DNA of 56,517 bases, from contig JAQBRF010000002.1 in NCBI GenBank assembly GCA_028286645.1, forward strand, positions 1-56,517, written 5' to 3'. Numbering within the stretch: the stretch's first letter is position 1; each line of letters begins with the position of its first letter. The translations under genes and the position numbers were made by a program. A model generated the notes under the pieces. It did not search any database, was not told where the DNA came from, and saw only the letters and a list, made by a program, of their open reading frames with translations. Shown here piece by piece: positions 5,046-35,853 of the stretch. This DNA is from Candidatus Nomurabacteria bacterium. Its GTDB lineage: Bacteria; Patescibacteriota; Minisyncoccia; Phycocordibacterales; UBA5272.

Positions 5046-5048
5046 GGG

Positions 5049-5121
5049 TGCATCCGCCTGGACTCGAACCAGGGACCAGTCGTGTATAAGACGACGGCTC
5101 TACCAACTGAGCTACGGATGC
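5049..5121 (-). tRNA. tRNA-Ile with anticodon UAU (decodes AUA); CCA not encoded
   Basis: The reverse complement folds as a canonical cloverleaf. Acceptor GCATCCG/CGGATGC, D stem GCTC/GAGC, anticodon stem GTCGT/ACGAC with loop CT-TAT-AC, T stem CCTGG/CCAGG with loop TTCGAGT, discriminator A. The anticodon corresponds to plus-strand ata at 5086-5088. Confidence 0.9.
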
Positions 5122-5186
5122 ATTTGTCCCTAGAACTATACCAAATTTTAATTATTTAGTTAAATTAAATTCTAAGAACTTAAATT

Positions 5187-7963: not shown

Positions 7964-8355
7964 GGGGGTGATCTTTGGCTTCGACATATAGAACTTGCTT
8001 GCATGCGCATTGCCGAGATTGCGAGATACCTCGTTAACCATCTCGCAAACACGTTGCAAATAAAACAGCAACAGCAATCCGTTCACCATACGTGAATGGA
8101 CTTGTCCCAGCATTCGCCTAAATTTTAGGCCGATCTGGTGTTATACCGATTCGCATCTGCGGAGTTGGATATAGCAATATAACAGCAGATGTAGATGTAT
8201 TTATTGCATAGTAATTACATCGAAACTCTTATGCTATACATGTACAGGTTTTCGTTTACTTTCTATCTGTACGTGCGAACACATCAGGTAAACTACGCAT
8301 TGTAGAAACATGTAGCGACTCTATATACACGGCGGTTCGATCCCGCCCACCTCCA
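7964..8355 (+). ncRNA. ssrA: tmRNA (SsrA)
   Basis: The 5' GGGGGTGATCTTTGGCTTCGAC pairs with the 3' CACCTCC plus discriminator A. T-arm GGCGGTTCGATCCCGCC. Internal tag frame GCA AAT ... GCA TTC GCC TAA lies at 8056-8121. Adjacent to smpB and followed by an intrinsic terminator. CCA is not encoded (caa follows). Confidence 0.85.
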
Positions 8356-8365
8356 CAAAAATAAG

Positions 8366-21947: not shown

Positions 21948-23426
21948 TTATAATCGCGCAAAAAGCGGTTTTTCTGGCATTTTGTTAACACTGATAGTTT
22001 CCTTAATCTTTTCTGCCGTTCTCGGAATAATCGGTTCAAGCATTATAGCTACCTCCCATAAATTTCTGACAAGTTTATAAATCATTTCTTTTCCACGAGC
22101 TTCATCCACTTTTATAACCTTAAATGGCTCATTTGTTTGCATATACTCATCCATCTTTTGTGTCGTCTGAGTTATAGCTTCTACTGCTTTTTTTATATCA
22201 TACGCGTTCAAGTTTTGTATATACTGTTTATATAAATCATCATCTTTATAAGTTTCGCTCCATTTGTACTCCTCTGATAGAGTAACTTTATATGTTTCGG
22301 CTAATTTCATAATGCGGTTAGTAAGATTGCCTATACCATTTGCTAAATAAGCCGAATATATATCTTTGATGCTTGTGATGTCAATATTAGTATCTTCAAA
22401 CGAAGGAAGCTGCAGCAAAAAGAATCTTAGTACGTCCTCCGGAAAATCCGTAAATGGTTTAAATAATTCTACTACCTCGTAAGGATTTATAACATTCCCT
22501 AATGACTTACTCATTTTTCTTCCATCGACTCCATTTATAAAACCATTAATTATGATTTTTTTAGATGGGTTAAGTCCTGCTGAGATTAGCATAGCTTGCC
22601 ACATCGAAGATTGCTGGCGATTATTATCTTTTCCGCAATATTGGATAACCCCACCTGATTGATTCCACCACTTTTCAAAAGTATCCTTATCATGCGGCCA
22701 TCCAATTGCTGAAATATAACTAACTAAAGCATCAAACCATACATACATGACTTGTGTCTCGTCCCCTGGTACAGGTATTCCCCAAGGCATTTTAGATTTT
22801 AAACGCGAAATAGAAAAGTCCTCTAAGCCTCTTTCTGTCCACTTCAAGGTTTCATTAAAGCGAAATTGAGGAGTGATAAAATCAGGATGTTCTTTATATA
22901 AAGACATGAGTTTATCTTGGTACTTTGAATACTTAAAAAAATAATTTTCTTCTTCGCGAATTTCAATTTCAAGGTTTGTGTGGAGTGGGCATTTACCGTC
23001 TACTAACTCACTGTCGGTTTTTTCCAGTTCACAGCCATTGCAATATTTCACCTTATACTGTTTTTTATAAATATCGCCGGTCTCATCGCATAATTTCCAA
23101 AATTTCTTCGCTGCTTCTATATGTTTTTCATCTGTAGTACGGACAAAACTACTAATAGAAAGATTAAGAGCTTCTATAAGTTCAGAAAACTTGGCGCTAT
23201 AAATATCCACATATTCCTGAGGAGTTTTGCCAGCGAGTGTCGCCTCTTCAAAGATTTTAACTCCATGTTCATCTGTTCCTGTATTAAAAAAAACTTCTTC
23301 GTTTAATGAATTATGGTATCGAGCAATAGCATCCGCACGTACTATTTCCATAGCAAAGCCGATATGCGGATCCGAGTTCACATAAGGAAGCGTGGTGGTA
23401 ATGTAAAAAGGTTTTTTAGATGGCAT
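21948..23426 (-). CDS. metG: Methionyl-tRNA synthetase
   Basis: HIGH-type PYVNSDPHIGFA, zinc knuckles CNGCE...CPLH, and KMSKS as RKMSKSLGN. Start placed at Met9 (23426), just after the upstream stop; the listed ORF extends to 23450. Confidence 0.9.
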   Translation of the reverse strand: MPSKKPFYITTTLPYVNSDPHIGFAMEIVRADAIARYHNSLNEEVFFNTGTDEHGVKIFEEATLAGKTPQEYVDIYSAKFSELIEALNLSISSFVRTTDEKHIEAAKKFWKLCDETGDIYKKQYKVKYCNGCELEKTDSELVDGKCPLHTNLEIEIREEENYFFKYSKYQDKLMSLYKEHPDFITPQFRFNETLKWTERGLEDFSISRLKSKMPWGIPVPGDETQVMYVWFDALVSYISAIGWPHDKDTFEKWWNQSGGVIQYCGKDNNRQQSSMWQAMLISAGLNPSKKIIINGFINGVDGRKMSKSLGNVINPYEVVELFKPFTDFPEDVLRFFLLQLPSFEDTNIDITSIKDIYSAYLANGIGNLTNRIMKLAETYKVTLSEEYKWSETYKDDDLYKQYIQNLNAYDIKKAVEAITQTTQKMDEYMQTNEPFKVIKVDEARGKEMIYKLVRNLWEVAIMLEPIIPRTAEKIKETISVNKMPEKPLFARL

Positions 23427-24459
23427 TCTTTCTTTTGTCAAAATCAGCAACTAGCTCCATAAACACTGAAGCTAGCGGAACGGCTAATATTATTCCCCAG
23501 ATACCTGCAAACTTCGCGCCAATTATAACGGCCACGATTACGATAATAGATGGGACCCCAACTAACTTAGTCATAACTCTCGGCACAAGCACATGATTTT
23601 CCAACTGATGGATGATAATAAATATTACCGCGACTATTCCTAATAAAGAACCTCCTCCATGAGCATAAGCTAAGAATAATCCCGGGACCACAGAAAATAG
23701 TAGACCGACAATAGGAATGAGTTCTCCAAAAAATGCAAGTATCGCAAGTAATGCAGCGTATGGAATACCTAAAATAAGCATTGGGATGAGCACGAGAATT
23801 CCCATTATAAATGATAGCAGAAGCTGTCCCTGTACCCATAGTCCGATCTTTCTTTGGGATCTTATCATTATATCCTTTATGTATTCTTCATAGCTTTTTG
23901 GAAAAATTAAATGCAAGAACTTTTCCACCCCTCTTTCTTGAAGAGAAAGATAAAATGCCATAACAAACACTATAATAATATTCACTACAGAACCAAGTAA
24001 GGCCGTCGTGGTAGCGAAGAAACTTCCAGCGCCGAACAATGTTTCTTTCGCCACTGTAAGAATTTGCGTTCCGGATATTTCACCTGAATAAGCCTGAAGA
24101 GAGGCAGAGAGATCGCGAAAGCCTAAGTCCTTGCCGAAGATCCTAAATGAATCTAATAGCTGTGGGAGATTATGGATAAATCGCGCAGCATCATCTGCAA
24201 GCGGTGGGACAACTACCGCGACTAAAGAAGCAATTATTGCTACAAAGATAATAAAAATAGCTGCGACAGATAGACCGCGGGATAACCCCCATTTCATTAA
24301 CGACTTAATAGGCATTTCTGCGGCGGATGCCAATACCACCGCCACAAGCAAAGCAATGATCACATCGCGCGCGTAGTAAAGCCCGGCAAAAAAGGCAATC
24401 CAAAGTATAGTTTTAATAATAGTAGACGAGGCTACGGTAATGCGTACATTTTCTTTCAT
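23416..24459 (-). CDS. AI-2E family (PerM-like) transporter
   Basis: 347 aa, about 8 TM. The layout and the C-terminal GELIPIVG...ILAVPL pattern are typical of AI-2E/PerM. TGaTAGGAT lies 6 nt before the ATG. Confidence 0.7.
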   Translation of the reverse strand: MKENVRITVASSTIIKTILWIAFFAGLYYARDVIIALLVAVVLASAAEMPIKSLMKWGLSRGLSVAAIFIIFVAIIASLVAVVVPPLADDAARFIHNLPQLLDSFRIFGKDLGFRDLSASLQAYSGEISGTQILTVAKETLFGAGSFFATTTALLGSVVNIIIVFVMAFYLSLQERGVEKFLHLIFPKSYEEYIKDIMIRSQRKIGLWVQGQLLLSFIMGILVLIPMLILGIPYAALLAILAFFGELIPIVGLLFSVVPGLFLAYAHGGGSLLGIVAVIFIIIHQLENHVLVPRVMTKLVGVPSIIVIVAVIIGAKFAGIWGIILAVPLASVFMELVADFDKRKNAI

Positions 24460-26465: not shown

Positions 26466-27020
26466 CTATAACTGAATTTCCTTGAGGACGAGAGAGACGT
26501 GGGAGTGCACATCTTTATATGCAAGCGTTAGGTGGGTATATATATCGTCCATACTCCAGGAAATATATTCCTTCATGTTTTTGGCGCCTATAGCTTTAAT
26601 ATCTGCATATCCTAAATCTACTAAAATTATATAATAAAGAAGCACCTTTGCTTTTGAAGGTTCGTAAGTAGTGAACTTCTGAAAAAACTCGCCCAGCCTG
26701 TCGTATAAAATCTTGTGTTCTCCTTCGCCACGAATAAGCCTTCTAATAATTTTAATTGCTTCTTGTACAGCTTCTCCTTTAGCTTTTTGATTTTCTGCCC
26801 CCACCAATCTCCATACCTCCTTACCTTTCACTAAGGTAACTAGCCCCACTCTTCCCGGGAGCACATGGGCACGCAATTTGCTGGCAAGCTTTCGTATGCT
26901 TCTTGCATGGACCATTACCATTCCAAATTCTCGGGTAAATAACTTTATTACACGATCATGCTCTCCTTGATCAAAAGCATCTATGACAATACTTTCGGTT
27001 GTATGTTTTTCAATAGCCAT
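26466..27020 (-). CDS. recO: DNA repair protein RecO (short form)
   Basis: The N-terminal OB-like segment ESIVIDAFDQGEHDRVIKLFTREFGMVMVHARSIRK...LVKGKEVWRL resembles RecO. Confidence 0.55.
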   Translation of the reverse strand: MAIEKHTTESIVIDAFDQGEHDRVIKLFTREFGMVMVHARSIRKLASKLRAHVLPGRVGLVTLVKGKEVWRLVGAENQKAKGEAVQEAIKIIRRLIRGEGEHKILYDRLGEFFQKFTTYEPSKAKVLLYYIILVDLGYADIKAIGAKNMKEYISWSMDDIYTHLTLAYKDVHSHVSLVLKEIQL

Positions 27021-27067: not shown

Positions 27068-30000
27068 TTAAAACTCGAAAGAAATTTCACCGGAAGATAC
27101 TTCGACTTTATTTTTTAATTCATCTTGAGTAATTTTAATTTCTGAAATATTACAGATCTTTTTCAAATCATCCAAAGATTCATCATCAAAAGAAGACTGG
27201 AGTGTGAGAATAACTTTATCTTTTGGCGATAATCCCATTTCCTTTCTCTTATCTTGAATGGCTCGGATTAATTCACGTACATCCCCTTCCTTTTTTAATT
27301 CCTCAGTTAAATTTAAATCTAAAGATACCACACTGTCGCCCTCTGAGCCAACTATTATCTCTTTTACATTTACTTCTTCTTTTATTAACTGATGATATTT
27401 AACTGAAATGTTTTTGATAGTGGTCAAAGTTTGAAGAGGCTGACGCACAGAAATTTTACTCTTGGTTCTTTCCATTAAAGCTTGAGACACGACATCTCGA
27501 ACTTCCTGCATTTCGGATATGATTTCCGATTCTACTTCTCCACCCTTTGGCCAACTTTCTAAGTGAACACTTTCTTTTTCTCCTCCAACTGCTTTATATA
27601 TTCTTTCTGATATAAATGGCATGACGGGAGCCATTACTTTTGAAAGCTCTAGAAGAACGTAAGTAAGCGTTACATATGCGTTCTTTTGTTCGTCTTCCCC
27701 ATCATCCCCCTTTAATCTACTTCGTGAGCGTCTTACATACCATACGGATAAATCATCAATTAATTGCTCAAGCGGACGCACAGCTTCATCAATTTTATAA
27801 CTGTCATAAGATAATGTTGCTGATTTTATAACCTCATGGATACGGCTTAGTATCCACTTGTCTATAACAGCATCTGAAGTGAGAGGAGAAGTGATTTGAA
27901 TCTTATTCATTTCATAAAGAGATACTACATTTTCCAATCTAGAAATTAACTTTTTATATACAGACGAGACATTTTCGTCATCAAACTCTACATTCTCGCC
28001 TTTTACTAAAGGACTAGAGATAAGAGCATATCTAATAGCATCAGCTCCGTACTTTTCAATCAATACCATAGGATCGGTGTAGTTCCCTTCTCTTTTTGAA
28101 AGTTTTGCGCCTGACTTTGCCATTACCCACCCGGTAACTATCACATGCTTATATGGAGCTCTGTTGAATAACCCCACCCCTAAATTAAGAAGCGAGTAAA
28201 ACCACCCCCTCGTCTGGTCCATAGCCTCACCAATAAAGTCTGCCGGGTATGCTGTATCAAATAAATCTTTGTTCTCAAATGGATAATGAATAGACGCAAA
28301 CGGCATTGATCCTGATTCGAACCAGCAGTCAAACACATCGGGAATTCTTTTCATTTCGCCTCCGCAATCACAAGTAAATTTAAAATCATCAATATATGGA
28401 CGATGAAGATTAATAACTCCTGTTTCATCTCTAGGAATCACCTTGGGAACAAGCTCACGAGCAACGGCGTTAGGCATCCAATCCCCAGGACCCAGATTAA
28501 TCATTTCATTATTTATATCGCTGTCAGTCCTTAAAGTTACTCCAGAAGAAAGCATCCAACCTGGACCTCCGTGAGTAATTATTAAAATATTTTTACCTTT
28601 ATATTTCTTTTCTAAGTCATACCACGCGGACATTACCCTTTTCATTAGCTCTCGGTGAGTCTCACCATCTTTTATTTCAGAATCTAAATTTATTTCTTTA
28701 AATGTGCCGTGATAATCAGATATTGGCCTTTTATCAAAAACCCCTAGATTAAATTCCTTCAGCCTTTCCTCCTCAATTATTTCTATCCCGCCTAATGATT
28801 TACTAACTATTTCCGCCGTCTCTTTGGTACGAAGAAATGGAGATGCGACGATTAAATCAATTTTTTCGTTTAACGCTTCTTTTACTTTTTCTGCTTGGCT
28901 TCTTCCATTCTCGGTGAGATGATTATTTGGGTCACCACTACAATCTATTACGCCATTTTGATTGCTAATTGCTTCTCCATGGCGCATTATAAAATATTTA
29001 TTATTAGCCTCTCTTCCTTCTGAAAGTTCTTCTAGAGATCCTATCACCTTTATTTTTTCACATTCTTCACATTTCCATACAGGAAGCGGCGCCCCCCAAT
29101 ATCGTGCGCGAGACACGGCCCATTCTCGTGCTCCTTCTAACCACTTTCCAAAACGCCCATCGCGCACATGTTCTGGCGTCCATCCAATTTTAGAATTCTC
29201 TTCGAGTAATTTATCCTTCATCTTAGGTACATCCACGAACCATGATGATGTTGCATACTGAATTAGCGGAGTCTTACATCTCCAACAAAGCGGGTACGAG
29301 TGGATTATTTTATGCTTTTCGAAAAGTAATCCGTGGTGCGCTAAATATTTTATTATTTCAATGTCCGCTGATTGCGTGTCATTTACTTGTTTTACCTTCA
29401 TCTGGGCAAAGTCAGTAACTTCAGAAATAAATCTCCCATCCATAGTTACATGCTTTATAATTGGAATATTATTTTGCTTTGCTAATTCCATGTCTTCCGC
29501 ACCAAATGCTGGCGCTTCGTGAGCTATCCCAGTTCCTGTATCTAATGTAATAAAATCTGCATGCCAGGTTTTCCAAATGTTTTCCTTATTTTCTAATTCT
29601 GTATCTTTGAAATATGGAAATACCGGAAGGTAAGATTTACCGAGCAGCTTTTCTCCCTTGAAGGTATCTACAACTTCGTATTTATGATCCTTTAGTACTT
29701 CTTCGACTCTTTCTTTTGCCAATATATATATGCCTTCCATTCCATCAACTTTTACTTTTTCATAATCAGCATCCTTATGAAGAGCAAGAGCGGTATTGCC
29801 TGGTAGCGTCCAAGGGGTCGTAGTCCAAGCTAAAATAAATGTTCCCGGTTCGTCTGTTAGCTCAAACTTAGCAGTTACAGAAATATCCGTAACATCATGA
29901 TATTCTAATCCCACTTCAGATTGAGCAAGAGGAGTCTCGCACCTCGGACAAATGTGCATCATTTTAAATCCTTCATAAGCTAAACCTTTTTTCCATAACT

Positions 30001-30499
30001 CATTCCACGCCCACCAAATACTTTCGGTATAAGTTGCGTCCATGGTTTTATATGGATGATCCATGTCCACCCATCTTCCAAGTCGAGGGATTACCCCCCT
30101 CCACTCTTCTTCGTATTTAAGAACTGACTCATATGCATCGCGATTAAATTTATCAATACCAAACTCTTCAATATCTTTTTTACTATTTAAATTAAGTTTC
30201 TTCTCTATTAGATTTTCTATCGGAAGACCGTGGCAATCCCATCCCCAAACTCGGCGAACACGCTTTCCGTTCATAGTTTGGTATCGTGGGACAGCATCTT
30301 TTACAACACTTTGAAGTATGTGGCCATAATGAGGAAGTCCCGTAGCAAATGGAGGACCATCGTAAAAAGAGAAATCTCCCCTTGGCTCGTCTCCCGCTGG
30401 AGTTTCTAGCGACTTTCCAAAAATGTTATTTTCATTCCAAAAAGCTAGTACTTCTTTTTCTTTTTCGCTTATTGTTTTTTGTTTGTTTGGTTCTTGCAT
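27068..30499 (-). CDS. ileS: Isoleucyl-tRNA synthetase (type 2-like) with an inserted histidine-phosphatase domain
   Basis: PHYGHIL (HIGH), TTTPWTLPGN editing motif, WAVSRARYWG, DVFDCWFESGSMPF, DQTRGWFYS, KLSKR (KMSKS). Start set at the ATG at 30499, because the 33 upstream codons of the listed ORF are the T-box leader. Confidence 0.95.
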   Translation of the reverse strand: MQEPNKQKTISEKEKEVLAFWNENNIFGKSLETPAGDEPRGDFSFYDGPPFATGLPHYGHILQSVVKDAVPRYQTMNGKRVRRVWGWDCHGLPIENLIEKKLNLNSKKDIEEFGIDKFNRDAYESVLKYEEEWRGVIPRLGRWVDMDHPYKTMDATYTESIWWAWNELWKKGLAYEGFKMMHICPRCETPLAQSEVGLEYHDVTDISVTAKFELTDEPGTFILAWTTTPWTLPGNTALALHKDADYEKVKVDGMEGIYILAKERVEEVLKDHKYEVVDTFKGEKLLGKSYLPVFPYFKDTELENKENIWKTWHADFITLDTGTGIAHEAPAFGAEDMELAKQNNIPIIKHVTMDGRFISEVTDFAQMKVKQVNDTQSADIEIIKYLAHHGLLFEKHKIIHSYPLCWRCKTPLIQYATSSWFVDVPKMKDKLLEENSKIGWTPEHVRDGRFGKWLEGAREWAVSRARYWGAPLPVWKCEECEKIKVIGSLEELSEGREANNKYFIMRHGEAISNQNGVIDCSGDPNNHLTENGRSQAEKVKEALNEKIDLIVASPFLRTKETAEIVSKSLGGIEIIEEERLKEFNLGVFDKRPISDYHGTFKEINLDSEIKDGETHRELMKRVMSAWYDLEKKYKGKNILIITHGGPGWMLSSGVTLRTDSDINNEMINLGPGDWMPNAVARELVPKVIPRDETGVINLHRPYIDDFKFTCDCGGEMKRIPDVFDCWFESGSMPFASIHYPFENKDLFDTAYPADFIGEAMDQTRGWFYSLLNLGVGLFNRAPYKHVIVTGWVMAKSGAKLSKREGNYTDPMVLIEKYGADAIRYALISSPLVKGENVEFDDENVSSVYKKLISRLENVVSLYEMNKIQITSPLTSDAVIDKWILSRIHEVIKSATLSYDSYKIDEAVRPLEQLIDDLSVWYVRRSRSRLKGDDGEDEQKNAYVTLTYVLLELSKVMAPVMPFISERIYKAVGGEKESVHLESWPKGGEVESEIISEMQEVRDVVSQALMERTKSKISVRQPLQTLTTIKNISVKYHQLIKEEVNVKEIIVGSEGDSVVSLDLNLTEELKKEGDVRELIRAIQDKRKEMGLSPKDKVILTLQSSFDDESLDDLKKICNISEIKITQDELKNKVEVSSGEISFEF

Positions 30500-30690
30500 A
30501 GATAAAAATAAAACTCGTCCTTGAGAAACAACCAAAGGTTGCTTTCCAAGGACGAGCGCTATATTCGCGATCGTGGTACCACCTTGATTCTCCCTCACAA
30601 ATGTTCGGGACTCATTTATGGGCTCTACGTTCCGTAATTTACGGAGTTCTTCCCGAAGCTCAGGGGTGATTAGTCCCGTCGTCGCTATAT
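30500..30690 (-). promoter_or_regulatory. T-box riboswitch leader of ileS (antiterminator/terminator)
   Basis: The minus strand shows AAUCAAGGUGGUACCACG (30572-30590). The terminator is CUCGUCCUUG/CAAGGACGAG (30514-30523 with 30548-30557) plus a U-tract. An alternative antiterminator pairing is CGAUCGC/GCGCUCG with CAAGG/CCUUG. Confidence 0.75.
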
Positions 30691-30694
30691 ATTT

Positions 30695-30722
30695 ATCTTA
30701 CATCAGGAGGATAAAAAGTAAA
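30695..30722 (-). promoter_or_regulatory. Candidate promoter of the ileS leader
   Basis: Minus strand TTTACT (30717-30722), 16-nt spacer, TAAGAT (30695-30700). Confidence 0.35.
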
Positions 30723-30731
30723 GAGCTCTCG

Positions 30732-30840
30732 ACTCCACGGCAGCGGAGTGATTTCTCGCCCTGGCCTACAGGAAAAATTTACTCACAACTCCATGGTCGT
30801 TGGAGTGATTTCTCGCTCATGCAATCCGGCGAGAAATCAC
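30732..30840. repeat. Repeated hairpin modules in the argS-ileS spacer
   Basis: ACTCCacggcagcGGAGTGATTTCTCGCC (30732-30760) and ACTCCAtggtcgtTGGAGTGATTTCTCGCT (30788-30817) are direct copies. GCGAGAAATCAC (30829-30840, overlapping the argS stop) is the inverted partner of GTGATTTCTCGC. Confidence 0.6.
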
Positions 30841-32558
30841 ATTTTCTCGGGAGCTTCTACGGCGATCATATTTAAAGACTTTTTTAATACTAATGATACG
30901 GAGTTAACAATTGCCAGCCGATGTGGAGTAGCTTGATCGCCTTCTACGATAATTGGAGTTGTCGCATAATAATTATTAAATAACTGAGATAGGTCAAATA
31001 AATATTTAACTATGTGTTGCGGAGATATTTCTTCTATTGCTCTAATAGCCAAACTTTCAAAATGGATTAATTTTCTTTCAAGCGTAGTGATATTTTGTTC
31101 ATTACTATAAGAAGGTGAACTATTTAAACTTTCAGATTTCTCTAACAGCGAGCGGGCGCGGGCGTATGTATATTGCACATATGGACCCGAGTCTCCCTCA
31201 AAAGAAAGGGATGTTTCTGGATCAAAGTTAATGTTGCTTCCAAGTTTAGAGCGTAAAATAGAAAACTTAAGGGCAGCGAGCGCCACTTGCTTATATACTT
31301 TTTCTTTTTCAATTTCTTCTAAGCCCTGTAACTTTTCACTTCCTATATTTTTTACTTCTTCTATTACAGTATTGATAACGTCCATTGCGAGAGGTACCCC
31401 GCCTAAACGCGATGACATTTTCTCTCCTTTAAAAGTCATTCGTCCGTGAGGAATATGCTGACTTTTTTCTGCCCAGTTCTTTTCTATCTTTTCTGCAGCA
31501 GCAAGTACCACTTTAAAATGCGTGGTTTGTTCATTGTCTGTCACAAACAATGAGTAATCAGGATCAAATTTCTCAAACTTATAAGACAGCAGTCCGATAT
31601 CTTTGGCTTCATAGGTAGGATTGCCTTGGCTATTAATAAATACAAGAGTATTTAAATCTTTTCTTTCTTCTGGCGGAATATAAACTATTGCCCCTTCGCT
31701 TTTAGTAAATACTTCAGGTGTGTATTTAAGAACTATTTCTTTTCCAAGATCCCCTGCTTGAGATTCATAGTAGAAATCATCAAAGTGAGAGCCCAGAGAA
31801 TCCATTAATGAAATAAAGTATTCCATATTGAACTTCTTTGCCTTTTCATAAATCTCCAACTCTTTGCTTTCTGTCTTAGAATATAACTTTTGCGCAATGC
31901 TTTTTATTTCCTTTTGCAAGTCTGGGTACTTTTCGTAGTGAGCGACTCCTTCTACATAAGACTTTCCTAAGTATGCGACTATCTCTTCTTTATCTTTTTG
32001 TAAAACTTCTTCAAATTTATCTTCCTCGAGCTTGATTATATAAATAGCTTTCGCGATGCCTAAAGAAATGTCTGATGGAAAGGCAATGGTATTTACTTTG
32101 GCTCCTCCGGCTCTCATTAAATGCCCTACCGCCTCTCCAGTGATATTATTCATTAAATGTCCCACGCTAAAAGGTTTGAAAAGATTCGGAGAAGAATGTT
32201 CTATAAGAATCTTTTTCCCGGTGTATTTGGTTTCAAAGAAAGCCTTTTCTTCAAAATTCCTAATACAATCTCTAATCACTTCGTCATTTAAGGAAAAGTT
32301 TATAAATCCTGGCCCAGCAATTTCTACTTTCGAGATTACATTGCTTTTGTCTTCATTTAATAAGAGCGCTAATTTCTCTGCTGCTTCTTTAGGGGAGCAC
32401 TTTAGTTGTTTCGAAAGTGGGAATGCGACATTTGTAGCAAAGTCCCCATGTGAAGAATCCTCCGGCTGTTCTATCGTAAAAATTATATCATCTATGATAT
32501 TAAGTTTTTTTACTGCTTCATGTACTATTTCTTTTATCTTCCCTGAGATATTTTCCAT
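30837..32558 (-). CDS. argS: Arginyl-tRNA synthetase
   Basis: 573 aa with the N-terminal Arg-tRNA-synthetase additional domain, a class I core (SSPNLFKPFSVGHL), MSSRLGG in the KMSK position, and a DALR-type C-terminus ending ...AVEAPEKM. TAGTAT lies 6 nt before the ATG. Confidence 0.95.
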   Translation of the reverse strand: MENISGKIKEIVHEAVKKLNIIDDIIFTIEQPEDSSHGDFATNVAFPLSKQLKCSPKEAAEKLALLLNEDKSNVISKVEIAGPGFINFSLNDEVIRDCIRNFEEKAFFETKYTGKKILIEHSSPNLFKPFSVGHLMNNITGEAVGHLMRAGGAKVNTIAFPSDISLGIAKAIYIIKLEEDKFEEVLQKDKEEIVAYLGKSYVEGVAHYEKYPDLQKEIKSIAQKLYSKTESKELEIYEKAKKFNMEYFISLMDSLGSHFDDFYYESQAGDLGKEIVLKYTPEVFTKSEGAIVYIPPEERKDLNTLVFINSQGNPTYEAKDIGLLSYKFEKFDPDYSLFVTDNEQTTHFKVVLAAAEKIEKNWAEKSQHIPHGRMTFKGEKMSSRLGGVPLAMDVINTVIEEVKNIGSEKLQGLEEIEKEKVYKQVALAALKFSILRSKLGSNINFDPETSLSFEGDSGPYVQYTYARARSLLEKSESLNSSPSYSNEQNITTLERKLIHFESLAIRAIEEISPQHIVKYLFDLSQLFNNYYATTPIIVEGDQATPHRLAIVNSVSLVLKKSLNMIAVEAPEKM

Positions 32559-32654: not shown

Positions 32655-33449
32655 ATGCGATCCTACCTTGATCTTTTACGGCGTGTGCGAGAAAATGGTG
32701 CTCAGAAAAGAGATCGGACTGGCACAGGGACTCTTTCCATTTTCGGAGAACAACTTCGCTTTGATTTAAATGCGCGTTTTCCGCTTCTAACCACGAAGAA
32801 GGTTTTCCTGAAGGGAGTTATCCACGAATTGCTCTGGTTCTTAAAGGGCGAAACCAACATCGAGTACCTGAAAGAAAATGGTGTAAAGATCTGGGACGAG
32901 TGGGCCGATGAAAACGGCGATCTCGGACCAGTATACGGGTATCAGTGGAGAAGCTGGCCGGCGTCTGATGGCAGGTACATCGACCAGATATCTCAAGTGC
33001 TGGAGCAGCTTCGCACCAATCCCGACTCGCGCCGAATGTGTGTATCAGCATGGAATGTAGCCGACTTAGACGAAATGGCACTCATGCCATGTCACATGTA
33101 TTTTCAGTTCTATGTGGCAGATGGAAGACTTTCGTGCCAGGTCTATCAACGAAGCGCGGACATCTTCCTGGGGGTACCATTCAACATCGCGTCATACGCG
33201 CTGCTTACAATGATGGTCGCACAAGTTTGCGGACTCGCACTCGGGGACTTCGTTCACACCTTTGGTGACACCCATCTTTACTTAAACCACATCAAGCAAG
33301 CAGATGAGCAGCTCACACGAGATCCTCGACCGCTGCCTATCATGCATCTTAACCCTGAGGTAAAAGACCTCTTCGCATTCAAGTATGAGGACTTCACTCT
33401 CGAAGGCTACGATCCGCATCCTGCAATTGCAGGCAAGGTCGCAGTCTGA
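32655..33449 (+). CDS. thyA: Thymidylate synthase ThyA (GC-rich islet 3)
   Basis: 264 aa. [28 protein letters not shown], catalytic Cys in [13 protein letters not shown], and [18 protein letters not shown]. About 55% GC. Confidence 0.95.
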
Positions 33450-33549: not shown

Positions 33550-34638
33550 TCACAGGGTCGGCATCGTGACCATCGGCGGAAGTTGCGGGATCAAATTCTG
33601 GTTCGCGGAGAAACCTTCATAGATCGGTGCGTCCGGGTCCACCCGATCGAGCCCGAAAGAGGCGACAAACGACCCTTCATAAGCTCGCACATCAGATGAA
33701 AGGGTAACCATCTCGAGAGTGGCACCACCCTGAAATCCATGCCCGAAATACTCTGCGAAATGGATTGCCCCCCGGAAAAGACTGGAATCGAGCTGCTTCA
33801 ACGAAGCACATAGTCCTTCTCGCAGGTTGAGTCCCTCTCGGGTAATGAAGAGGTAATACCCCGTTTCCCGCAAATCAACGTAGAGCCTTCCGTCGCCGCC
33901 CCTGTTCGCGTACACCGGTTCGAAAAAGTCCTCCCACTTTTGCCCACGAAGGGACAAGTCCAGGACCTTTGCGTCTTTCCGAAGCTTAAAACCGCACAGA
34001 CCCTCCTGAAGGTGGAGCGTGGCGAGTAAGCGACCGTCCGGAGTTACTCGTCGAAGCTGCAGTTCTTTTTCCAGAGGCTTGCCAGTTCGCGGGTCGATGA
34101 AAAGATTATGGCCTGATACAAGGATCTTAAGCACCTCTTCTCTTCCGAGCCGCGCATCTTTGCGAGAAATGCGCATTTGAAGAAGAGATTCTTTGCCGAG
34201 GCCAGTCACTGGAATACGAGAAATCGCACTAATGATAACTCTTCTGGAAAGGCCGTCGCGCGAATAGGCGCAATTCATTTCCCCGAAGCCATCTACATGT
34301 GCTGTGGACTCGAGTCCAATACGGGCCATGCCAGACCTACTGCTGAAACCCACATGGAACGGTTCGAGCAGGTTCAGCCGTACGGCTGCCTGAGCAAGGA
34401 CTGTGTGTCCAGGCCGCAAGATCAGCCCGTCAAGCCCCACTTCTTCCCCGAACATATTCATATCCGGGTATCCAGTGGAAGCAAAAGGCTTATTGGCCAG
34501 GCGCACGGGCTGTGAAAGGCCGATGTCGATTGTTTCATTTTTGACTTCGACCAGCCCTCCAGTCTTAACCAAAAATCCCTCATCCAGAAGCATCCGTAAC
34601 GCATCTCGTCCTAAAACGCCACAGAACGGCTTTTTCAT
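33550..34638 (-). CDS. Divergent dCTP-deaminase/dUTPase-fold protein, two-lobed DCD-like paralog (GC-rich)
   Basis: 362 aa. The N-lobe SSRSGMARIGL resembles the Dcd RSSLARLGL motif. The C-lobe FAEYFGHGFQGGATLEMV resembles H.A.fiDPGf.G..TLE. Colinear with the neighbouring 34732..35820 protein. Strong SD AAGGAGGG at 34646-34653. Confidence 0.55.
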   Translation of the reverse strand: MKKPFCGVLGRDALRMLLDEGFLVKTGGLVEVKNETIDIGLSQPVRLANKPFASTGYPDMNMFGEEVGLDGLILRPGHTVLAQAAVRLNLLEPFHVGFSSRSGMARIGLESTAHVDGFGEMNCAYSRDGLSRRVIISAISRIPVTGLGKESLLQMRISRKDARLGREEVLKILVSGHNLFIDPRTGKPLEKELQLRRVTPDGRLLATLHLQEGLCGFKLRKDAKVLDLSLRGQKWEDFFEPVYANRGGDGRLYVDLRETGYYLFITREGLNLREGLCASLKQLDSSLFRGAIHFAEYFGHGFQGGATLEMVTLSSDVRAYEGSFVASFGLDRVDPDAPIYEGFSANQNLIPQLPPMVTMPTL

Positions 34639-34731: not shown

Positions 34732-35820
34732 CTACTTGAACTGTTTTGCAAGTTTCGGTCCAGATTGCATCTTATAATTTGAATTTTTCTGATCATAATG
34801 CACTTCCGGAACTTGCGCCATTCTTTCAAAACGGACCTTTCCTATCGGCTGACCATGCGTAACTACCACATCTTCGAATGATCGCACCTCTAATGTAATA
34901 GGCCTTCCTTTTCCTTCGCCTTTCGCTCCGTACCCCCACCCCGGGTCGAAGAATCCAGCATAATGAGTTCTGAATTCTCCCGTTCTAGAATCCATATCAA
35001 CCATTTCACTTGCGATATATGGAGGAACTCGCAGAGCTTCTTTCGTGGAAAGAATATAAAAGCTATCTTTGTGAAGCAACAGACTGTCTCCATTTTTATG
35101 TAATGGAGTAAAATACTTTGAAGAATCTAATGATGCATTAGCTGCTCCTAAATCAAGCACGGTGTTGCCTCCCCTACACTCGTATCCGACAATGTCTTGA
35201 GACAAATCAAGCGTGAGCAAAATAGATCCGTCGCCATCAGTCATCACGAGATCATTATATTGGGATGGTACGCCATTTAATTGATACACAAAAGGCGATA
35301 TCTCAAACTGCTTTCTAAGATCTTCTTCACTAAAACGAGTATCTTCATTAAAAAAACGGATTTGAGATATAGGAAAGTTAATGGGGAGTAAAACCGGGTA
35401 GGATCTAGGAACAACAATGGCCCACAAATCCCCTTTGCTTCCCTTTGGCAAAGTATCATACCTGGCTACGTCATCTTTTATAACTCTTACATGCAGGTCA
35501 TGCCGCCCGGTGGATGATTTCGGATTGCAGTATCCATAAATATCATGAGGGAGATCAAACTGTTCGTTTAAACGTACGACATATATCACCCCTCGTTCTA
35601 GAGGTTCGTTAATAGCATGCCTGGTGCCATTCATTCTTTTAATTAAAGATTGTATTGACTCTCCTGTTTTTGGCAAAAAGACTCCATCAACTCTGTATAT
35701 CTCTCCTGATATGGTTACGTCTATAGATGCTGGACTTATATGCTCCTCCTTAACGTTCTTAAATACACCTAAATTAACATTCTTCTTTAGATCTTGTGAT
35801 GGAATAGCTCCCTTAGTCAT
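34732..35820 (-). CDS. 2'-deoxycytidine 5'-triphosphate deaminase (long DCD family)-like protein
   Basis: About 362 aa. NPKSSTGRHDL in the N-lobe, and HYAGFFDPGWGYG...GRPITLEVRSF...HGQPIGKVRFERM in the C-lobe (dCTP deaminase catalytic Glu context). Start set at the ATG at 35820, preceded by TGtTATGAT-N6; the listed ORF starts one codon earlier at a TTG. Confidence 0.65.
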   Translation of the reverse strand: MTKGAIPSQDLKKNVNLGVFKNVKEEHISPASIDVTISGEIYRVDGVFLPKTGESIQSLIKRMNGTRHAINEPLERGVIYVVRLNEQFDLPHDIYGYCNPKSSTGRHDLHVRVIKDDVARYDTLPKGSKGDLWAIVVPRSYPVLLPINFPISQIRFFNEDTRFSEEDLRKQFEISPFVYQLNGVPSQYNDLVMTDGDGSILLTLDLSQDIVGYECRGGNTVLDLGAANASLDSSKYFTPLHKNGDSLLLHKDSFYILSTKEALRVPPYIASEMVDMDSRTGEFRTHYAGFFDPGWGYGAKGEGKGRPITLEVRSFEDVVVTHGQPIGKVRFERMAQVPEVHYDQKNSNYKMQSGPKLAKQFK

Positions 35821-35853
35821 CAAACCATCATAACAGATACATTAACCAAAACA

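What the first reader, a model, noticed from the sequence alone, without database searches (positions are those of the whole stretch)
28415..29014. Complete histidine-phosphatase (PGAM-like) domain inserted in frame inside the catalytic core of isoleucyl-tRNA synthetase
IleS reads normally through PHYGHIL, TTTPWTLPGN and [36 protein letters not shown]. About 200 aa then intervene before INLHRPYID...DVFDCWFESGSMPF, DQTRGWFYS and KLSKR resume in the same frame. From memory, eukaryote-like/type-2 IleRS has only a few residues between the ...ELEELSG and DLHR... segments. The insert carries the hallmarks of histidine phosphatase superfamily branch 1. These are FIMRHGEAISN (RHG catalytic Arg-His), LTENGRSQA, SPFLRTKETA (second Arg), ERLKEFNLG (acidic residue), ETHRELMKRV and ILIITHGGPG (second His). 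It therefore looks like a functional enzyme module rather than a linker. There is no stop, frameshift or composition break, so it does not look like two fused genes or an assembly join. I am not aware of a described IleRS with this architecture. Speculative roles: removing 2',3'-cyclic or 3'-phosphate ends from damaged tRNA before charging, hydrolysing a phosphorylated inhibitor or Ap4A-type by-product, or regulatory dephosphorylation.
Basis: partly seen in the sequence, partly recalled or inferred. Interest (0 to 1): 0.85.

Follow-up and report, generated by a model that had tools for sequence, protein, structure and literature searches.

The report
Phosphatase grafted into isoleucyl-tRNA synthetase
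A complete, apparently active phosphatase enzyme sits inside the protein that loads isoleucine onto tRNA. The same phosphatase family is joined to tRNA-charging enzymes again and again across a large group of tiny uncultured bacteria, which points to an undescribed link between a phosphatase and tRNA charging.

Summary
Window 27068..30499(-) encodes a 1143-aa type-2 IleRS. Residues 496-695 (28415..29014) are a whole histidine-phosphatase domain (Pfam His_Phos_1, E 4.8e-31; AF2 pLDDT 93.7). It replaces a ~10-residue loop in the CP3 subdomain.

It is not an assembly artefact. 91 of 93 insert-bearing loci from different Parcubacteria/Patescibacteria species carry the same uninterrupted ORF. The catalytic residues R506, H507, N513, R557, E582, R621 and H643 are invariant in 64/64 orthologues, although the domain is only 39% identical on average.

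In sister lineages the same phosphatase is a ~190-aa gene immediately upstream of an insert-less ileS (argS-HP-ileS, median gap 4 nt). This held in 65 of 78 informative loci; the other 13 had it inside ileS.

The family also occurs:
- at two other IleRS sites, in one or two copies per protein;
- at the homologous CP3 site of ValRS, in up to four copies;
- fused to the C-terminus of ArgRS;
- fused to Sua5/TsaC.

All copies with the full catalytic region keep the core catalytic residues.

Best reading: an active PhoE/GpmB-type phosphatase that began as an operon partner and is functionally coupled to class-Ia tRNA charging. The substrate is unknown; my favoured guess is a blocking phosphate on the tRNA 3' end. 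I found no paper describing this, and databases label these proteins only as "isoleucyl-tRNA synthetase".

The parts
27068..30499 (-). ileS coding sequence: 1143 aa plus stop, a type-2 (eukaryote-like) isoleucyl-tRNA synthetase that carries the insert
   Evidence: ORF. NCBIfam TIGR00392 850.8 bits against cut-off 621.4. Best solved relatives are IleRS2 8c8u, yeast IleRS and T. thermophilus 1ile. Full-length AF2 pLDDT 89.4, pTM 0.82.
29015..30499 (-). IleRS residues 1-495: first Rossmann half with HYGH (57-60), CP core, CP1 editing domain (TTTPWT 226-231, GTGIAH 322-327), CP2, the CP2-3 linker [10 protein letters not shown] (460-469), and the first CP3 hairpin with CEEC (477-480)
   Evidence: Domain names follow PMC7191050 and PMC7955072.
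28415..29014 (-). The insert, residues 496-695: a whole histidine-phosphatase (HP) protein equivalent, including its C-terminal helices and last strand, matching stand-alone homologues of about 186-228 aa (median 192)
   Evidence: translation; stand-alone sequences; alignments; stand-alone ORF lengths. AF2 on the insert alone gives pLDDT 93.7 and pTM 0.91.
28544..28993 (-). Pfam His_Phos_1 match, residues 503-652
   Evidence: E 4.8e-31, 108.4 bits (cut-off 21.7). Foldseek top hits are 9mmh, 4ij5/4ij6 (PspA) and 1h2e (PhoE), with query-normalised TM 0.74-0.76.
28979..28984 (-). Codons for R506-H507 of the RHG motif (H507 is the phospho-accepting histidine in this superfamily)
   Evidence: for coordinates. 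R 64/64 and H 64/64 in orthologues.
28571..28573 (-). Codon for H643, the second catalytic histidine
   Evidence: H 64/64. Other invariant pocket residues: N513 (28961..28963), R557 (28829..28831), E582 (28754..28756), R621 (28637..28639).
27068..28414 (-). IleRS residues 696-1143: second CP3 hairpin with CDC (710-712), second Rossmann half (DVFDCWFESG 721-730, KLSKR 799-803), anticodon-binding domain and C-terminal DUF5915 domain
30500..30836 (-). ileS leader: an Ile-specific T-box riboswitch with a very short stem I (Rfam match 30545..30691), followed by a terminator hairpin and U-run just before the ATG
   Evidence: RF00230 31 bits, E 2.6e-5, below the gathering score of 93. Fold z-score -3.7. 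The motif is conserved in 15 related loci and absent elsewhere. The specifier AUC is visible in the alignment. 11 of 22 pairs show compensatory changes.
30837..32558 (-). argS (arginyl-tRNA synthetase), the conserved upstream neighbour. In sister lineages the stand-alone phosphatase gene lies between argS and ileS.
   Evidence: Pfam. Synteny.
26466..27020 (-). recO-like gene, the conserved downstream neighbour of ileS
   Evidence: Pfam RecO_N. Synteny.

Best explanation
Core claim (confidence 0.6). The insert is a complete, catalytically competent PhoE/GpmB/PspA-type histidine phosphatase (HP). It derives from a ~190-aa gene that lies immediately upstream of ileS, translationally coupled to it, in sister Parcubacteria lineages. 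It has been grafted into a surface loop of the CP3 subdomain of a type-2 IleRS. CP3 starts right after the CP2-3 linker ([10 protein letters not shown]), which lines the pocket for the tRNA 3'-CCA end. The synthetase keeps all its own catalytic and editing motifs, so the polypeptide is two enzymes in one. The phosphatase is functionally coupled to class-Ia aminoacylation rather than being a passenger.

Shown:
- the fold and the invariant active site;
- intact ORFs in many species;
- the argS-HP-ileS operon;
- repeated, independent joining of this one phosphatase family to IleRS (three sites, one or two copies), ValRS (homologous sites, up to four copies), ArgRS (C-terminus) and Sua5/TsaC (C-terminus).

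Inferred:
- that the phosphatase is active;
- that it acts in cis next to the synthetase active-site face.

Favoured mechanism (about 0.25-0.3 of total probability). The synthetase body, or Sua5, acts as a tRNA-docking platform. The phosphatase removes a phosphomonoester that blocks charging, such as a 2'/3'-phosphate or the remnant of a pyrophosphorylated or cyclic-phosphate end on A76, before the class-I enzyme acylates the 2'-OH.

Other coupled mechanisms (clearing PPi or AMP, dephosphorylating the synthetase, destroying an adenylate-mimic inhibitor) are listed as rivals.
For: Fold and active site. Pfam E 4.8e-31. AF2 pLDDT 93.7, and Foldseek matches to solved histidine phosphatases at E ~1e-12 with TM 0.74-0.76. 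R506, H507, N513, R557, E582, R621 and H643 are invariant in 64/64 full-length orthologues. Mean identity is 39% in the domain, 27% in the linker and 60% in the IleRS core.

Real gene. 78 of 80 loci from the first genome scan and 13 more from the second have an uninterrupted ORF across both junctions. The full-length model is confident and still IleRS-like.

Origin and linkage. A scan with stand-alone homologues found the gene directly upstream of an insert-less ileS in 65 of 80 loci and inside ileS in 13; 2 were uninformative. So 78 of 78 informative loci are ileS-linked, and argS lies upstream in 71. The distance from the HP stop to the ileS start has a median of 4 nt (IQR 1-15, n=49). The window shows the same argS-ileS-recO synteny.

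Recurrence.
- Two IleRS clades carry the CP3 insert. In the second clade the HP is up to 79% identical to stand-alone HPs and at most 52% identical to first-clade inserts. Its IleRS core is up to 66% identical to an insert-less IleRS and at most 52% to the first clade. This suggests at least two captures at the same loop.
- Other IleRS proteins carry two HPs, either in tandem or at two different sites. These sites are after WFESG... and at the junction of the catalytic and anticodon domains. At least one copy always sits at CP3 or the loop just after it.
- ValRS carries HP at the homologous CP3 site in 14 of the 17 HP-bearing fragment clusters recovered. Two intact ORFs are seen in reference genomes, and there are up to four copies.
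- ArgRS-HP fusion. Sua5/YrdC-HP fusions sit next to genes for the CCA-adding enzyme, TGT and TruD.

All copies keep R, H, R, E, E, R, H apart from four isolated substitutions (P0154 copy 1 has Q at the second E and third R; P0123 copy 4 has G at the first E; P0275 has K for the third R; P0287 has C for the first E). Some fragments lack part of the region. Copies within one protein are only 26-52% identical, so the duplications are old and both copies have been retained.

Site. CP3 follows the linker that forms part of the CCA/reveromycin pocket, and CP3 topology differs among solved IleRSs, so it tolerates change (PMC7955072, PMC7191050).
Against: - No biochemical data exist, and no histidine-phosphatase-superfamily member is known to me to act on RNA ends.
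- The nearest solved relatives are small-molecule phosphatases: an ARPP phosphatase of riboflavin synthesis, phosphoserine phosphatase, PhoE, and glucosyl-3-phosphoglycerate phosphatase.
- Fusion to the ArgRS and Sua5 C-termini, and an insertion at the junction of the catalytic and anticodon domains, show that a precise geometry is not required.
- The IleRS and ArgRS joins could be helped along simply by gene adjacency.
- Sua5/TsaC does not handle the tRNA 3' end.
- I could not obtain model coordinates, so the distance from H507 to the tRNA A76 site is unknown.
- Whether the stand-alone protein binds IleRS is untested.
- The phylogeny is neighbour-joining only, so the count of independent insertions is approximate.
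Confidence: 0.6

Rival explanations
1. Passenger enzyme. The phosphatase is an ordinary small-molecule housekeeping phosphatase (sugar phosphate, phosphoserine-type or nucleotide) with no mechanistic link to tRNA charging. It sat in the argS-ileS operon, and genome streamlining or local rearrangement fused it to its neighbours. It persists because it is needed and the CP3 loop tolerates it.
For: The closest solved relatives are all small-molecule phosphatases. The IleRS and ArgRS joins involve immediate neighbours. CP3 varies structurally among IleRSs. The genes occasionally found between HP and ileS are unrelated to each other, so the region is simply a conserved gene string with insertions.
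Against: The same family is also joined to ValRS and to Sua5/TsaC, and no adjacency was seen in the loci examined for either. Insertions recur at homologous loops in two paralogous synthetases, in one to four copies that all keep the active site almost without exception. Insertion into an essential enzyme is unlikely to be fixed repeatedly without benefit. 78 of 78 informative loci keep the ileS linkage across a deep radiation.
Confidence: 0.22
2. Product clearance. The phosphatase hydrolyses a small phosphorylated product released at the active site of adenylate-forming enzymes (pyrophosphate, or AMP). This would pull amino-acid activation forward in organisms that may lack, or deliberately limit, soluble pyrophosphatase.
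For: Every partner (IleRS, ValRS, ArgRS, Sua5/TsaC) uses ATP and releases PPi. This is the only chemistry shared by all four (established enzymology; partners). Insensitivity to exact placement fits a diffusible substrate, and at least one copy always sits close to the active-site side. From my own memory, not checked here, PhoE-type enzymes hydrolyse AMP.
Against: PPi is a phosphoanhydride, not the phosphomonoester typical of this superfamily, and I know of no member that is a pyrophosphatase. It is unclear why only a few of the roughly 20 synthetases would need it. Hydrolysing AMP would be wasteful for a salvage-dependent cell. I could not test whether these genomes lack ppa or hppA.
Confidence: 0.1
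3. Protein phosphatase. The domain removes an inhibitory phosphate from the synthetase itself or from a translation partner. That phosphate could be placed by a HipA-type toxin kinase or a host or competitor kinase. The domain would then be a built-in antidote or regulator.
For: From general knowledge, not checked here: the superfamily includes protein phosphatases (SixA, PGAM5, Sts-1), and HipA-family kinases are known to inactivate aaRSs by phosphorylation. A tether to the target would explain fusion at many positions.
Against: SixA model scores are below the cut-off and cover only the N-terminal half. No kinase gene is consistently nearby. Two to four diverged active copies per synthetase are hard to explain. 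There is no match to known defence families.
Confidence: 0.05
4. Inhibitor detoxification. The domain destroys a phosphate- or phosphoramidate-containing mimic of isoleucyl- or valyl-adenylate at the target enzyme. This would be analogous to the immunity enzymes against microcin-C-type antibiotics.
For: Parcubacteria encode MccH-like HIT phosphoramidases, one of which confers resistance to processed microcin C (bioRxiv 10.1101/2020.03.04.977132). NCBIfam curates an IleRS with a GNAT domain (NF040702). From my own memory, GNAT enzymes such as MccE detoxify aminoacyl-nucleotide antibiotics. A HIT gene lies about 4 kb upstream in the Staskawiczbacteria loci.
Against: This is entirely indirect. 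No such inhibitor of IleRS or ValRS is known. Histidine phosphatases attack terminal phosphates, not the internal phosphate of an adenylate analogue. The Sua5 and ArgRS fusions fit poorly.
Confidence: 0.02
5. Not a working enzyme or not real: an inert structural or dimerisation module, an intein-like mobile insert, or an assembly or frameshift artefact.
For: Histidine phosphatases often dimerise, and tandem copies could be pseudo-dimers. Some database entries are short fragments carrying both Pfam domains.
Against: The seven pocket residues are invariant in 64/64 orthologues at 39% domain identity. There is no Hint/intein family among the Pfam matches. The ORF is intact in 91 independent assemblies. 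The two short fragments examined, on long contigs, were frameshift-split gene calls in long-read assemblies.
Confidence: 0.01

Closest known systems
Type-2 (eukaryote-like) bacterial IleRS, e.g. Priestia megaterium IleRS2 (PDB 8c8u) and Thermus thermophilus IleRS (1ile)
   Same: Same family and domain order: Rossmann fold with HIGH and KMSKS, CP core, CP1 editing, CP2, CP3, anticodon-binding domain and C-terminal domain. phmmer E 2.9e-219 to 8c8u. The AF2 model superposes with target-normalised TM 0.81. Like T. thermophilus, the window protein has a CxxC...CxC pair in CP3.
   Different: About 200 residues (a whole enzyme) replace the ~10-residue CP3 loop of IleRS2. No solved or described IleRS has a catalytic domain there.
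PhoE / GpmB / PspA-type broad-specificity histidine phosphatases (PDB 1h2e, 4ij5, 9mmh; Pfam PF00300)
   Same: Same fold and size (~190-210 aa). Same RHG...R...E...H catalytic set and the GE...R motif.
   Different: Only 20-25% identical. It scores below the cut-off of every curated NCBIfam equivalog (CobC, dPGM, GpmB, PspA, SixA). It belongs to a family found here almost only in Patescibacteria (343 clusters at E<=1e-30). That family is genetically tied to ileS, valS, argS or sua5, which is not known for the characterised enzymes.
CP1 editing domain of class-Ia synthetases
   Same: A hydrolytic domain inserted into the Rossmann fold of IleRS, ValRS and LeuRS that acts on the tRNA acceptor end. 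It is the classical precedent for 'an enzyme inside the synthetase'.
   Different: CP1 is universal, ancient and an ester hydrolase. This is a lineage-specific phosphatase of an unrelated fold, inserted in CP3 (or CP2, or later loops), in addition to an intact CP1.
IleRS with an N-acetyltransferase domain (NCBIfam NF040702, ileS_w_GNAT)
   Same: Another curated case of an IleRS that carries an extra enzyme domain.
   Different: It has a different accessory fold, and the window protein scores 304 bits against a cut-off of 1999, so it is not a member. I could not establish where the GNAT domain sits or what it does.
Bifunctional RNase H / acid phosphatase (Rv2228c type; NCBIfam NF005567)
   Same: A CobC/PhoE-like histidine phosphatase fused to an enzyme that acts on nucleic acid. 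The window insert matches the phosphatase half (68-71 bits).
   Different: That is an end-to-end fusion, not an internal insertion, and the partner is RNase HI, not a synthetase. The score is far below the cut-off of 326.

Membership tests
Isoleucyl-tRNA synthetase (TIGR00392), type 2 | Whole-protein score above the curated equivalog cut-off | tested here: met
   850.8 bits against 621.4, matched as two stretches around the insert.
Isoleucyl-tRNA synthetase (TIGR00392), type 2 | Class-I signature motifs HIGH and KMSKS | tested here: met
   HYGH at 57-60 and KLSKR at 799-803.
Isoleucyl-tRNA synthetase (TIGR00392), type 2 | CP1 editing domain with the threonine-rich peptide and the GTG.VH motif | tested here: met
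   WTTTPWTLPGN (226-231) and GTGIAHEAP (322-327). Residues 200-403 match isolated IleRS editing-domain structures 1wk8 and 1wny.
Isoleucyl-tRNA synthetase (TIGR00392), type 2 | Closer to type-2/eukaryote-like than to type-1 IleRS | tested here: met
   8c8u (IleRS2) E 2.9e-219, yeast IleRS ~1e-200, against S. aureus type 1 at 2.7e-88. Foldseek gives the same order.
Isoleucyl-tRNA synthetase (TIGR00392), type 2 | Isoleucine-specific aminoacylation activity | not testable with these tools
   Needs an enzyme assay. Indirect support: the leader is a T-box with an AUC (Ile) specifier.
Histidine phosphatase superfamily, branch 1 (PF00300) | Profile match above the Pfam gathering score | tested here: met
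   108.4 bits against 21.7, E 4.8e-31, profile positions 2-156 of 194.
Histidine phosphatase superfamily, branch 1 (PF00300) | Catalytic core: RHG histidine, second histidine, two arginines, acidic proton donor | tested here: met
   R506, H507, R557, E582 and H643 (plus N513 and R621) are each 64/64 in orthologues. They are also kept, apart from four isolated substitutions, in all copies with the region present in the ValRS, ArgRS, Sua5 and multi-copy proteins.
Histidine phosphatase superfamily, branch 1 (PF00300) | Alpha/beta fold of the superfamily | tested here: met
   AF2 pLDDT 93.7 and pTM 0.91. Foldseek finds 299 PDB matches at E<=0.001; all 50 listed are histidine phosphatases or mutases, with query-normalised TM 0.74-0.76 for the closest phosphatases.
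Histidine phosphatase superfamily, branch 1 (PF00300) | Phosphatase (or mutase) activity | not testable with these tools
   Needs purified protein.
Cofactor-dependent phosphoglycerate mutase (dPGM) | Score above the curated dPGM model cut-offs, and the conserved H-G-N after the second histidine | tested here: not met
   dPGM_arch 73.8-77.6 bits against 225. PRK14115 16 bits against 305. GpmB 59-64 bits against 261. The residue two positions after H643 varies (G/S/Y/D/A), and the residue next to it is G in only 34 of 64.
Alpha-ribazole phosphatase CobC (TIGR03162) | Score above the equivalog cut-off | tested here: not met
   75-79 bits against 162.9.
Phosphohistidine phosphatase SixA (TIGR00249) | Score above the cut-off over the full model | tested here: not met
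   40.7-44 bits against 74.5, covering only model positions 3-74 of 154.
IleRS with GNAT domain (NF040702) | Score above the exception-model cut-off | tested here: not met
   304 bits against 1999.
Intein / self-splicing insert | Hint/intein domain, and nucleophile residues at both junctions | tested here: not met
   No Hint/intein family is among the five Pfam families matched at E<=0.01. The junction residues are ...SEG|REANNKY and ...ETGV|INLHRP, with no Cys/Ser/Thr in the +1 pattern or His-Asn.
T-box leader (RF00230) (side finding) | Rfam gathering score; T-box sequence; specifier loop; terminator/antiterminator | tested here: inconclusive
   31 bits against a gathering score of 93 (not met), because stem I is almost absent. 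However, E is 2.6e-5, the AAGGUGGUACCACG box, the AUC+A specifier and the terminator are conserved in 16 leaders, and 11 of 22 pairs show compensatory changes.

The most novel reading that the evidence does not exclude
Patescibacteria have a dedicated 'synthetase-associated phosphatase' that adds a previously unknown step to tRNA charging. Working from inside IleRS or ValRS, or as their operon partner, it would remove a blocking 2'/3'-phosphate or pyrophosphate from the tRNA acceptor end, or another phospho-lesion of the charging cycle. Such lesions could be left by nucleases or by toxins such as tRNA-pyrophosphorylating RelA/SpoT homologues. Selection for physical proximity would have been strong enough to graft the enzyme independently, several times, into homologous CP3 loops of two different synthetases.
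Probability: 0.25. Interest if true: 0.9.

Novelty: new variant of a known kind. Interest (0 to 1): 0.75.

Why it matters
Aminoacyl-tRNA synthetases are among the best-studied enzymes. Apart from the universal editing domain, catalytic domains inserted inside their core are essentially unknown in bacteria.

Here one phosphatase family is tied to class-Ia synthetases in several ways: as a translationally coupled operon partner, as an insert, as tandem repeats and as a terminal fusion. This is seen across hundreds of species of a major uncultured radiation. That pattern is the classic signature of a functional partnership, and it implies a phosphate-removal step linked to tRNA charging that is not in any textbook scheme.

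The question is directly testable with one recombinant protein and two point mutants.

The case is also a natural example of repeated domain insertion at the same loop of paralogous enzymes. That is useful for protein engineering, because it marks CP3 as a permissive graft site. It also matters for annotation, because these genes are currently labelled simply IleRS or 'class I tRNA ligase'.

Tried and rejected
- Short proteins (160-300 aa) carrying both Pfam domains on long contigs looked like genuinely split genes. The two I checked, P0056 and P0017, are frameshift-fragmented gene calls in long-read assemblies.
- P0086 (TMP-TENI + tRNA-synt_1) looked like a different insert. It is an insert-less IleRS fragment with an odd N-terminus on a 1.4-kb contig.
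- The genes that occasionally sit between HP and ileS (16 loci) were checked for a consistent third partner. They are unrelated to one another.
- A PADLOC scan for a defence-system link found nothing meaningful.
- I looked for a second HP copy or a remnant upstream of ileS in the window. There is none.
- I tried to name the lineage of the tandem-HP IleRS (P0271) by scanning reference genomes. Only two weak, unrelated hits came back.
- The context of a stand-alone HP-HP tandem (P0233) was uninformative because the contig is only 2 kb.
- Pfam annotation of 30 window ORFs, looking for a pyrophosphatase or kinase clue, found only ordinary housekeeping genes.
- Whether HP-bearing genomes lack ppa or hppA could not be tested, because only ~10-kb loci can be fetched.
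- Model coordinates are not returned, so I could not superpose the model on IleRS-tRNA complexes.
- A shared C-junction motif (LP[HY]N...LD[LF]HRP) first looked like proof of a single insertion. From my memory of the T. thermophilus sequence (PLPEPFDPHRP), it resembles native IleRS sequence, so it does not decide the question.
- Eight literature searches found nothing on this architecture.

Full report
OBSERVATION

The minus-strand ORF 27068..30598 most likely starts at ATG 30499, because the upstream GTG lies inside a riboswitch leader. It encodes 1143 residues. Coordinates 28415..29014 are exactly residues 496-695.

Pfam finds tRNA-synt_1 in two pieces (E 2.5e-127), His_Phos_1 at residues 503-652 (E 4.8e-31, 108 bits, cut-off 21.7), Anticodon_1 and DUF5915. 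NCBIfam ileS scores 850.8 bits against a cut-off of 621.4. Against P. megaterium IleRS2 (8c8u), residues 1-493 align to chain residues 1-475 and residues 696-1082 to chain residues 486-884. About 200 residues therefore stand where IleRS2 has about 10. GC content does not change across the borders.

WHERE THE INSERT SITS

The insert follows [36 protein letters not shown] and precedes INLHRPYIDDFKFTCDCGG...DVFDCWFESG. In the nomenclature of the yeast and Candida IleRS structures this is the CP3 subdomain. CP3 begins right after the CP2-3 linker (ARDWNVSRNRYWG in yeast). That linker forms part of the pocket occupied by reveromycin A and the tRNA CCA end (PMC7955072). CP3 topology differs among the T. 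thermophilus, S. aureus and C. albicans enzymes, and only the Thermus enzyme has a zinc knuckle there (PMC7191050).

So the domain is grafted into a variable, peripheral loop between the two halves of a CxxC...CxC pair. It is not in the Rossmann strands. The four cysteines are present in the window protein but are not conserved among its orthologues.

IS IT A REAL, FOLDED, ACTIVE-LOOKING ENZYME?

- AF2 on the 200-residue insert gives pLDDT 93.7 and pTM 0.91.
- Foldseek against the PDB returns only histidine phosphatases and mutases among its listed matches. The top hits are 9mmh (a histidine-family phosphatase of riboflavin synthesis), PspA 4ij5/4ij6 and PhoE 1h2e, with E ~1e-12 and query-normalised TM 0.74-0.76.
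- The full-length model has pLDDT 89.4 and pTM 0.82 and still superposes on IleRS2 (target-normalised TM 0.81).
- In 64 full-length orthologues, R506, H507, N513, R557, E582, R621 and H643 are each 64/64. Mean pairwise identity is 39% in the domain, 27% in the C-terminal linker part and 60% in the synthetase core.
- The insert is below the cut-off for every curated subfamily: CobC 75-79 against 162.9, archaeal dPGM 74-78 against 225, GpmB, PspA and SixA. It also lacks the dPGM H-G-N signature.

It is best described as a PhoE/GpmB/PspA-like phosphatase of unknown substrate.

IT IS NOT AN ARTEFACT

A scan of one genome per species found 80 loci that match the insert plus both flanks. The record titles that name a lineage include Nomura-, Kaiser-, Adler-, Wolfe-, Vogel-, Yonath-, Lloyd- and Taylorbacteria, and 'Paceibacterota'. 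Many other titles are generic or carry other labels. The named groups checked in the taxonomy belong to the Parcubacteria group of Patescibacteria.

78 of the 80 loci have no stop between the N- and C-terminal IleRS matches. Where the locus holds the whole gene, the ORFs are 1117-1300 aa. Insert length is 200-213 residues in all but one orthologue. The short database proteins with both Pfam domains that I examined are frameshift-split gene calls in long-read assemblies.

ORIGIN: THE UPSTREAM OPERON NEIGHBOUR

The closest stand-alone homologues are about 186-228 aa (median 192) and 35-42% identical to the insert. They align over its whole length. In Staskawiczbacteria the gene order is argS - HP - ileS (946 aa, no insert) - x - recO, with 2-4 nt between genes. 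This is the same synteny as in the window: argS 30837..32558, ileS, recO-like 26466..27020.

A genome scan with the stand-alone family returned 80 loci:
- in 65 the gene is upstream of an insert-less ileS (49 adjacent, 16 with one unrelated gene in between);
- in 13 it is inside ileS;
- 2 loci are truncated.

So 78 of 78 informative loci are ileS-linked, and argS is upstream in 71. The distance from the HP stop to the first possible ileS start has a median of 4 nt (IQR 1-15, n=49). The window has no second copy and no remnant upstream.

RECURRENCE

On a neighbour-joining tree of the IleRS core, inserted proteins form two clades: 58 sequences including the window, and 12 others. In the second clade:
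- the HP is up to 79% identical to stand-alone HPs and at most 52% identical to first-clade inserts;
- the IleRS core is up to 66% identical to an insert-less IleRS and at most 52% identical to the first clade.

The site is the same in both clades. This pattern favours at least two captures at one loop, although a better phylogeny is needed.

A profile search of 1.84 billion representative proteins finds 343 clusters at E<=1e-30. Among the best 146 there are:
- 68 stand-alone proteins;
- 45 IleRS with one insert, plus fragments;
- IleRS with two HPs in tandem at CP3 (the P0168/P0271 type, seen on 8 contigs from at least three samples);
- IleRS with HPs at two different sites. P0148 has CP3 plus the junction of the catalytic and anticodon domains. 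P0165 has the loop after WFESGSMPYA plus that junction. P0154 has CP3 plus the post-WFESG loop. The ORFs of P0148 and P0165 are intact;
- an ArgRS-HP C-terminal fusion followed directly by recO, with no ileS in that operon;
- two Sua5/YrdC-HP fusions (plus P0076), whose neighbours in the loci examined (P0076) are genes for the CCA-adding enzyme, TGT, queuosine salvage and TruD;
- HP-HP tandems.

In every two-site IleRS, at least one copy is at CP3 or the loop just after it.

P0123 is a ValRS (valS models 380-410 bits against ileS 199). It has one HP in CP2 and three in tandem after DWCISRQIWWGHRIPVWY, which is the CP3 site homologous to the IleRS one. Searching with that segment recovered 17 HP-bearing ValRS fragment clusters. 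Where a source names the lineage, they are Gracilibacteria, Parcubacteria and Doudnabacteria.
- 14 have HP at CP3;
- one has it after DTWFSSG...;
- one has it in CP2;
- the last is P0284, whose HP lies between the DWxISRQ and WFSSG motifs but has an atypical N-junction, so I did not count it.

Three reference genomes carry such ValRS genes. Two are clearly intact ORFs of 1010 aa and of 1278 aa with two HPs.

All copies with the region present keep the core catalytic residues, apart from four isolated substitutions and some variation at the N position. Copies within one protein are only 26-52% identical. The duplications are therefore old and both copies have been maintained.

INTERPRETATION

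Shown: a complete histidine-phosphatase fold with an invariant active site; a real gene in many species; an origin from, or common ancestry with, the gene translationally coupled to ileS; and repeated physical joining of this one family to IleRS, ValRS, ArgRS and Sua5/TsaC.

Inferred: that the phosphatase is active and that its function is coupled to the partner enzymes. Gene adjacency alone could explain the IleRS and ArgRS joins. It does not explain the ValRS and Sua5 joins, the reuse of homologous loops in two paralogous synthetases, or the long-term retention of multiple active copies. I put about 0.6 on functional coupling.

The substrate is unknown. All partners are ATP-dependent, PPi-releasing, tRNA-related enzymes, and the three synthetases are class I, which acylate the 2'-OH of A76. 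Because this superfamily hydrolyses phosphomonoesters, and because the dominant site adjoins the CCA pocket, my favoured mechanism (about 0.25-0.3) is removal of a blocking phosphate from the tRNA acceptor end, with the synthetase or Sua5 serving as the tRNA-binding platform.

The other possibilities are:
- an unlinked small-molecule phosphatase carried as a passenger (about 0.22);
- clearance of PPi or AMP (about 0.1);
- dephosphorylation of the synthetase (about 0.05);
- destruction of an adenylate-mimic inhibitor (about 0.02). Parcubacteria do encode MccH-like phosphoramidases, one of which confers resistance to processed microcin C.

An inert module or an artefact is essentially excluded.

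COMPARISON WITH WHAT IS KNOWN

The host protein is a bona fide type-2 IleRS. The insert is a bona fide member of histidine-phosphatase branch 1, but it belongs to none of the curated functional subfamilies.

The nearest precedents are:
- the universal CP1 editing domain, a hydrolase inserted in the same enzymes;
- the curated IleRS-with-GNAT family (NF040702), of which the window protein is not a member (304 bits against 1999);
- the RNase H / acid-phosphatase fusion of actinobacteria.

None of these is a phosphatase inside a synthetase. Source databases name these proteins 'isoleucyl-tRNA synthetase', 'class I tRNA ligase family protein' or 'histidine phosphatase family protein, partial'. Eight full-text searches found no description. 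The library lacks most subscription journals, so absence of a report is not proof.

I rate it a new variant of a known kind: a synthetase with an accessory domain.

VERDICT

The finding is real. Interest 0.75.

Noticed in passing
window 30500..30836 (-), Rfam match 30545..30691; also L001-L005, L007-L011, L014, L020, L029, L035, L042 upstream of ileS: ileS is preceded by an atypical T-box riboswitch. Stem I is almost absent (6 nt where the model has 75). The specifier loop ACUAAUCAC carries the Ile codon AUC. The AAGGUGGUACCACG box is conserved and a strong terminator with a U-run ends just before the ATG. The Rfam score is only 31 bits (gathering 93). However, the core motif occurs once, at the same place, in 15 related loci and nowhere else in ~1.6 Mb of loci, and 11 of 22 predicted pairs show compensatory changes. 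None of the 65 loci with a separate phosphatase gene has it. From memory, not checked here, short-stem-I ileS T-boxes are known from Actinobacteria; I did not check whether they are reported in Patescibacteria.
   Followed up: partly
window 5045..5122 (-): A tRNA-Ile gene with anticodon TAT (UAU). This is unusual for bacteria, which normally read AUA with a lysidine-modified CAU tRNA. It hints that this organism may lack TilS and that its IleRS must accept a UAU anticodon. The T-box specifier is AUC, so the leader senses the major GAU isoacceptor.
   Followed up: no
window 7964..8358 (+): A tmRNA gene (Rfam 94.7 bits) with the unusually short predicted tag peptide ADVDVFIA.
   Followed up: no
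window 30692..30836 (-): The 5' part of the ileS leader, upstream of the T-box match, holds two copies of GCGAGAAAUCACUCC about 70 nt apart, each at the foot of a predicted hairpin. Their role (extra leader structure, protein-binding sites) is unexplained.
   Followed up: no
window 21948..23450 (-), 27068..30499 (-), 30837..32558 (-): Three class-I synthetase genes (metG, ileS, argS) lie within 11 kb on the same strand. They are interleaved with recO, a DUF11 surface protein and an AI-2E transporter. The argS-ileS-recO order is conserved across Parcubacteria.
   Followed up: partly
window 33550..34638 (-) and 34732..35823 (-): Two adjacent paralogous dCTP-deaminase-like genes sit next to thymidylate synthase (32655..33449 +). 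The second copy matches only the C-terminal DCD domains weakly, so it may be a degenerate duplicate.
   Followed up: no
L172/L173 5001..7070: In one lineage the phosphatase is fused to the C-terminus of ArgRS (689 aa), and recO follows immediately. ileS has therefore left the operon while the phosphatase stayed with argS.
   Followed up: partly
L089-L091 (Sua5-HP gene at L089 1964..3292): The Sua5/YrdC-phosphatase fusion sits in a tRNA-maturation neighbourhood that includes the CCA-adding enzyme with its HD domain, tRNA-guanine transglycosylase, a queuosine-salvage protein and TruD.
   Followed up: no
L176, L177-L179 (IleRS with two phosphatase domains): The multi-copy IleRS genes come from genomes with ~50% GC and neighbouring SLH-domain proteins, a long RelA/SpoT protein and a DAHP-synthase-family gene, with no argS upstream. 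They probably belong to a different lineage from the ~32-39% GC Parcubacteria-type loci. I could not identify it.
   Followed up: partly
(homologue search output): The word-indexed protein search returned no protein longer than about 660 aa for either query, although full-length 1100-1470-aa relatives exist in the representative library and in genomes. Counts of full-length proteins from that tool are therefore unreliable for long proteins.
   Followed up: no
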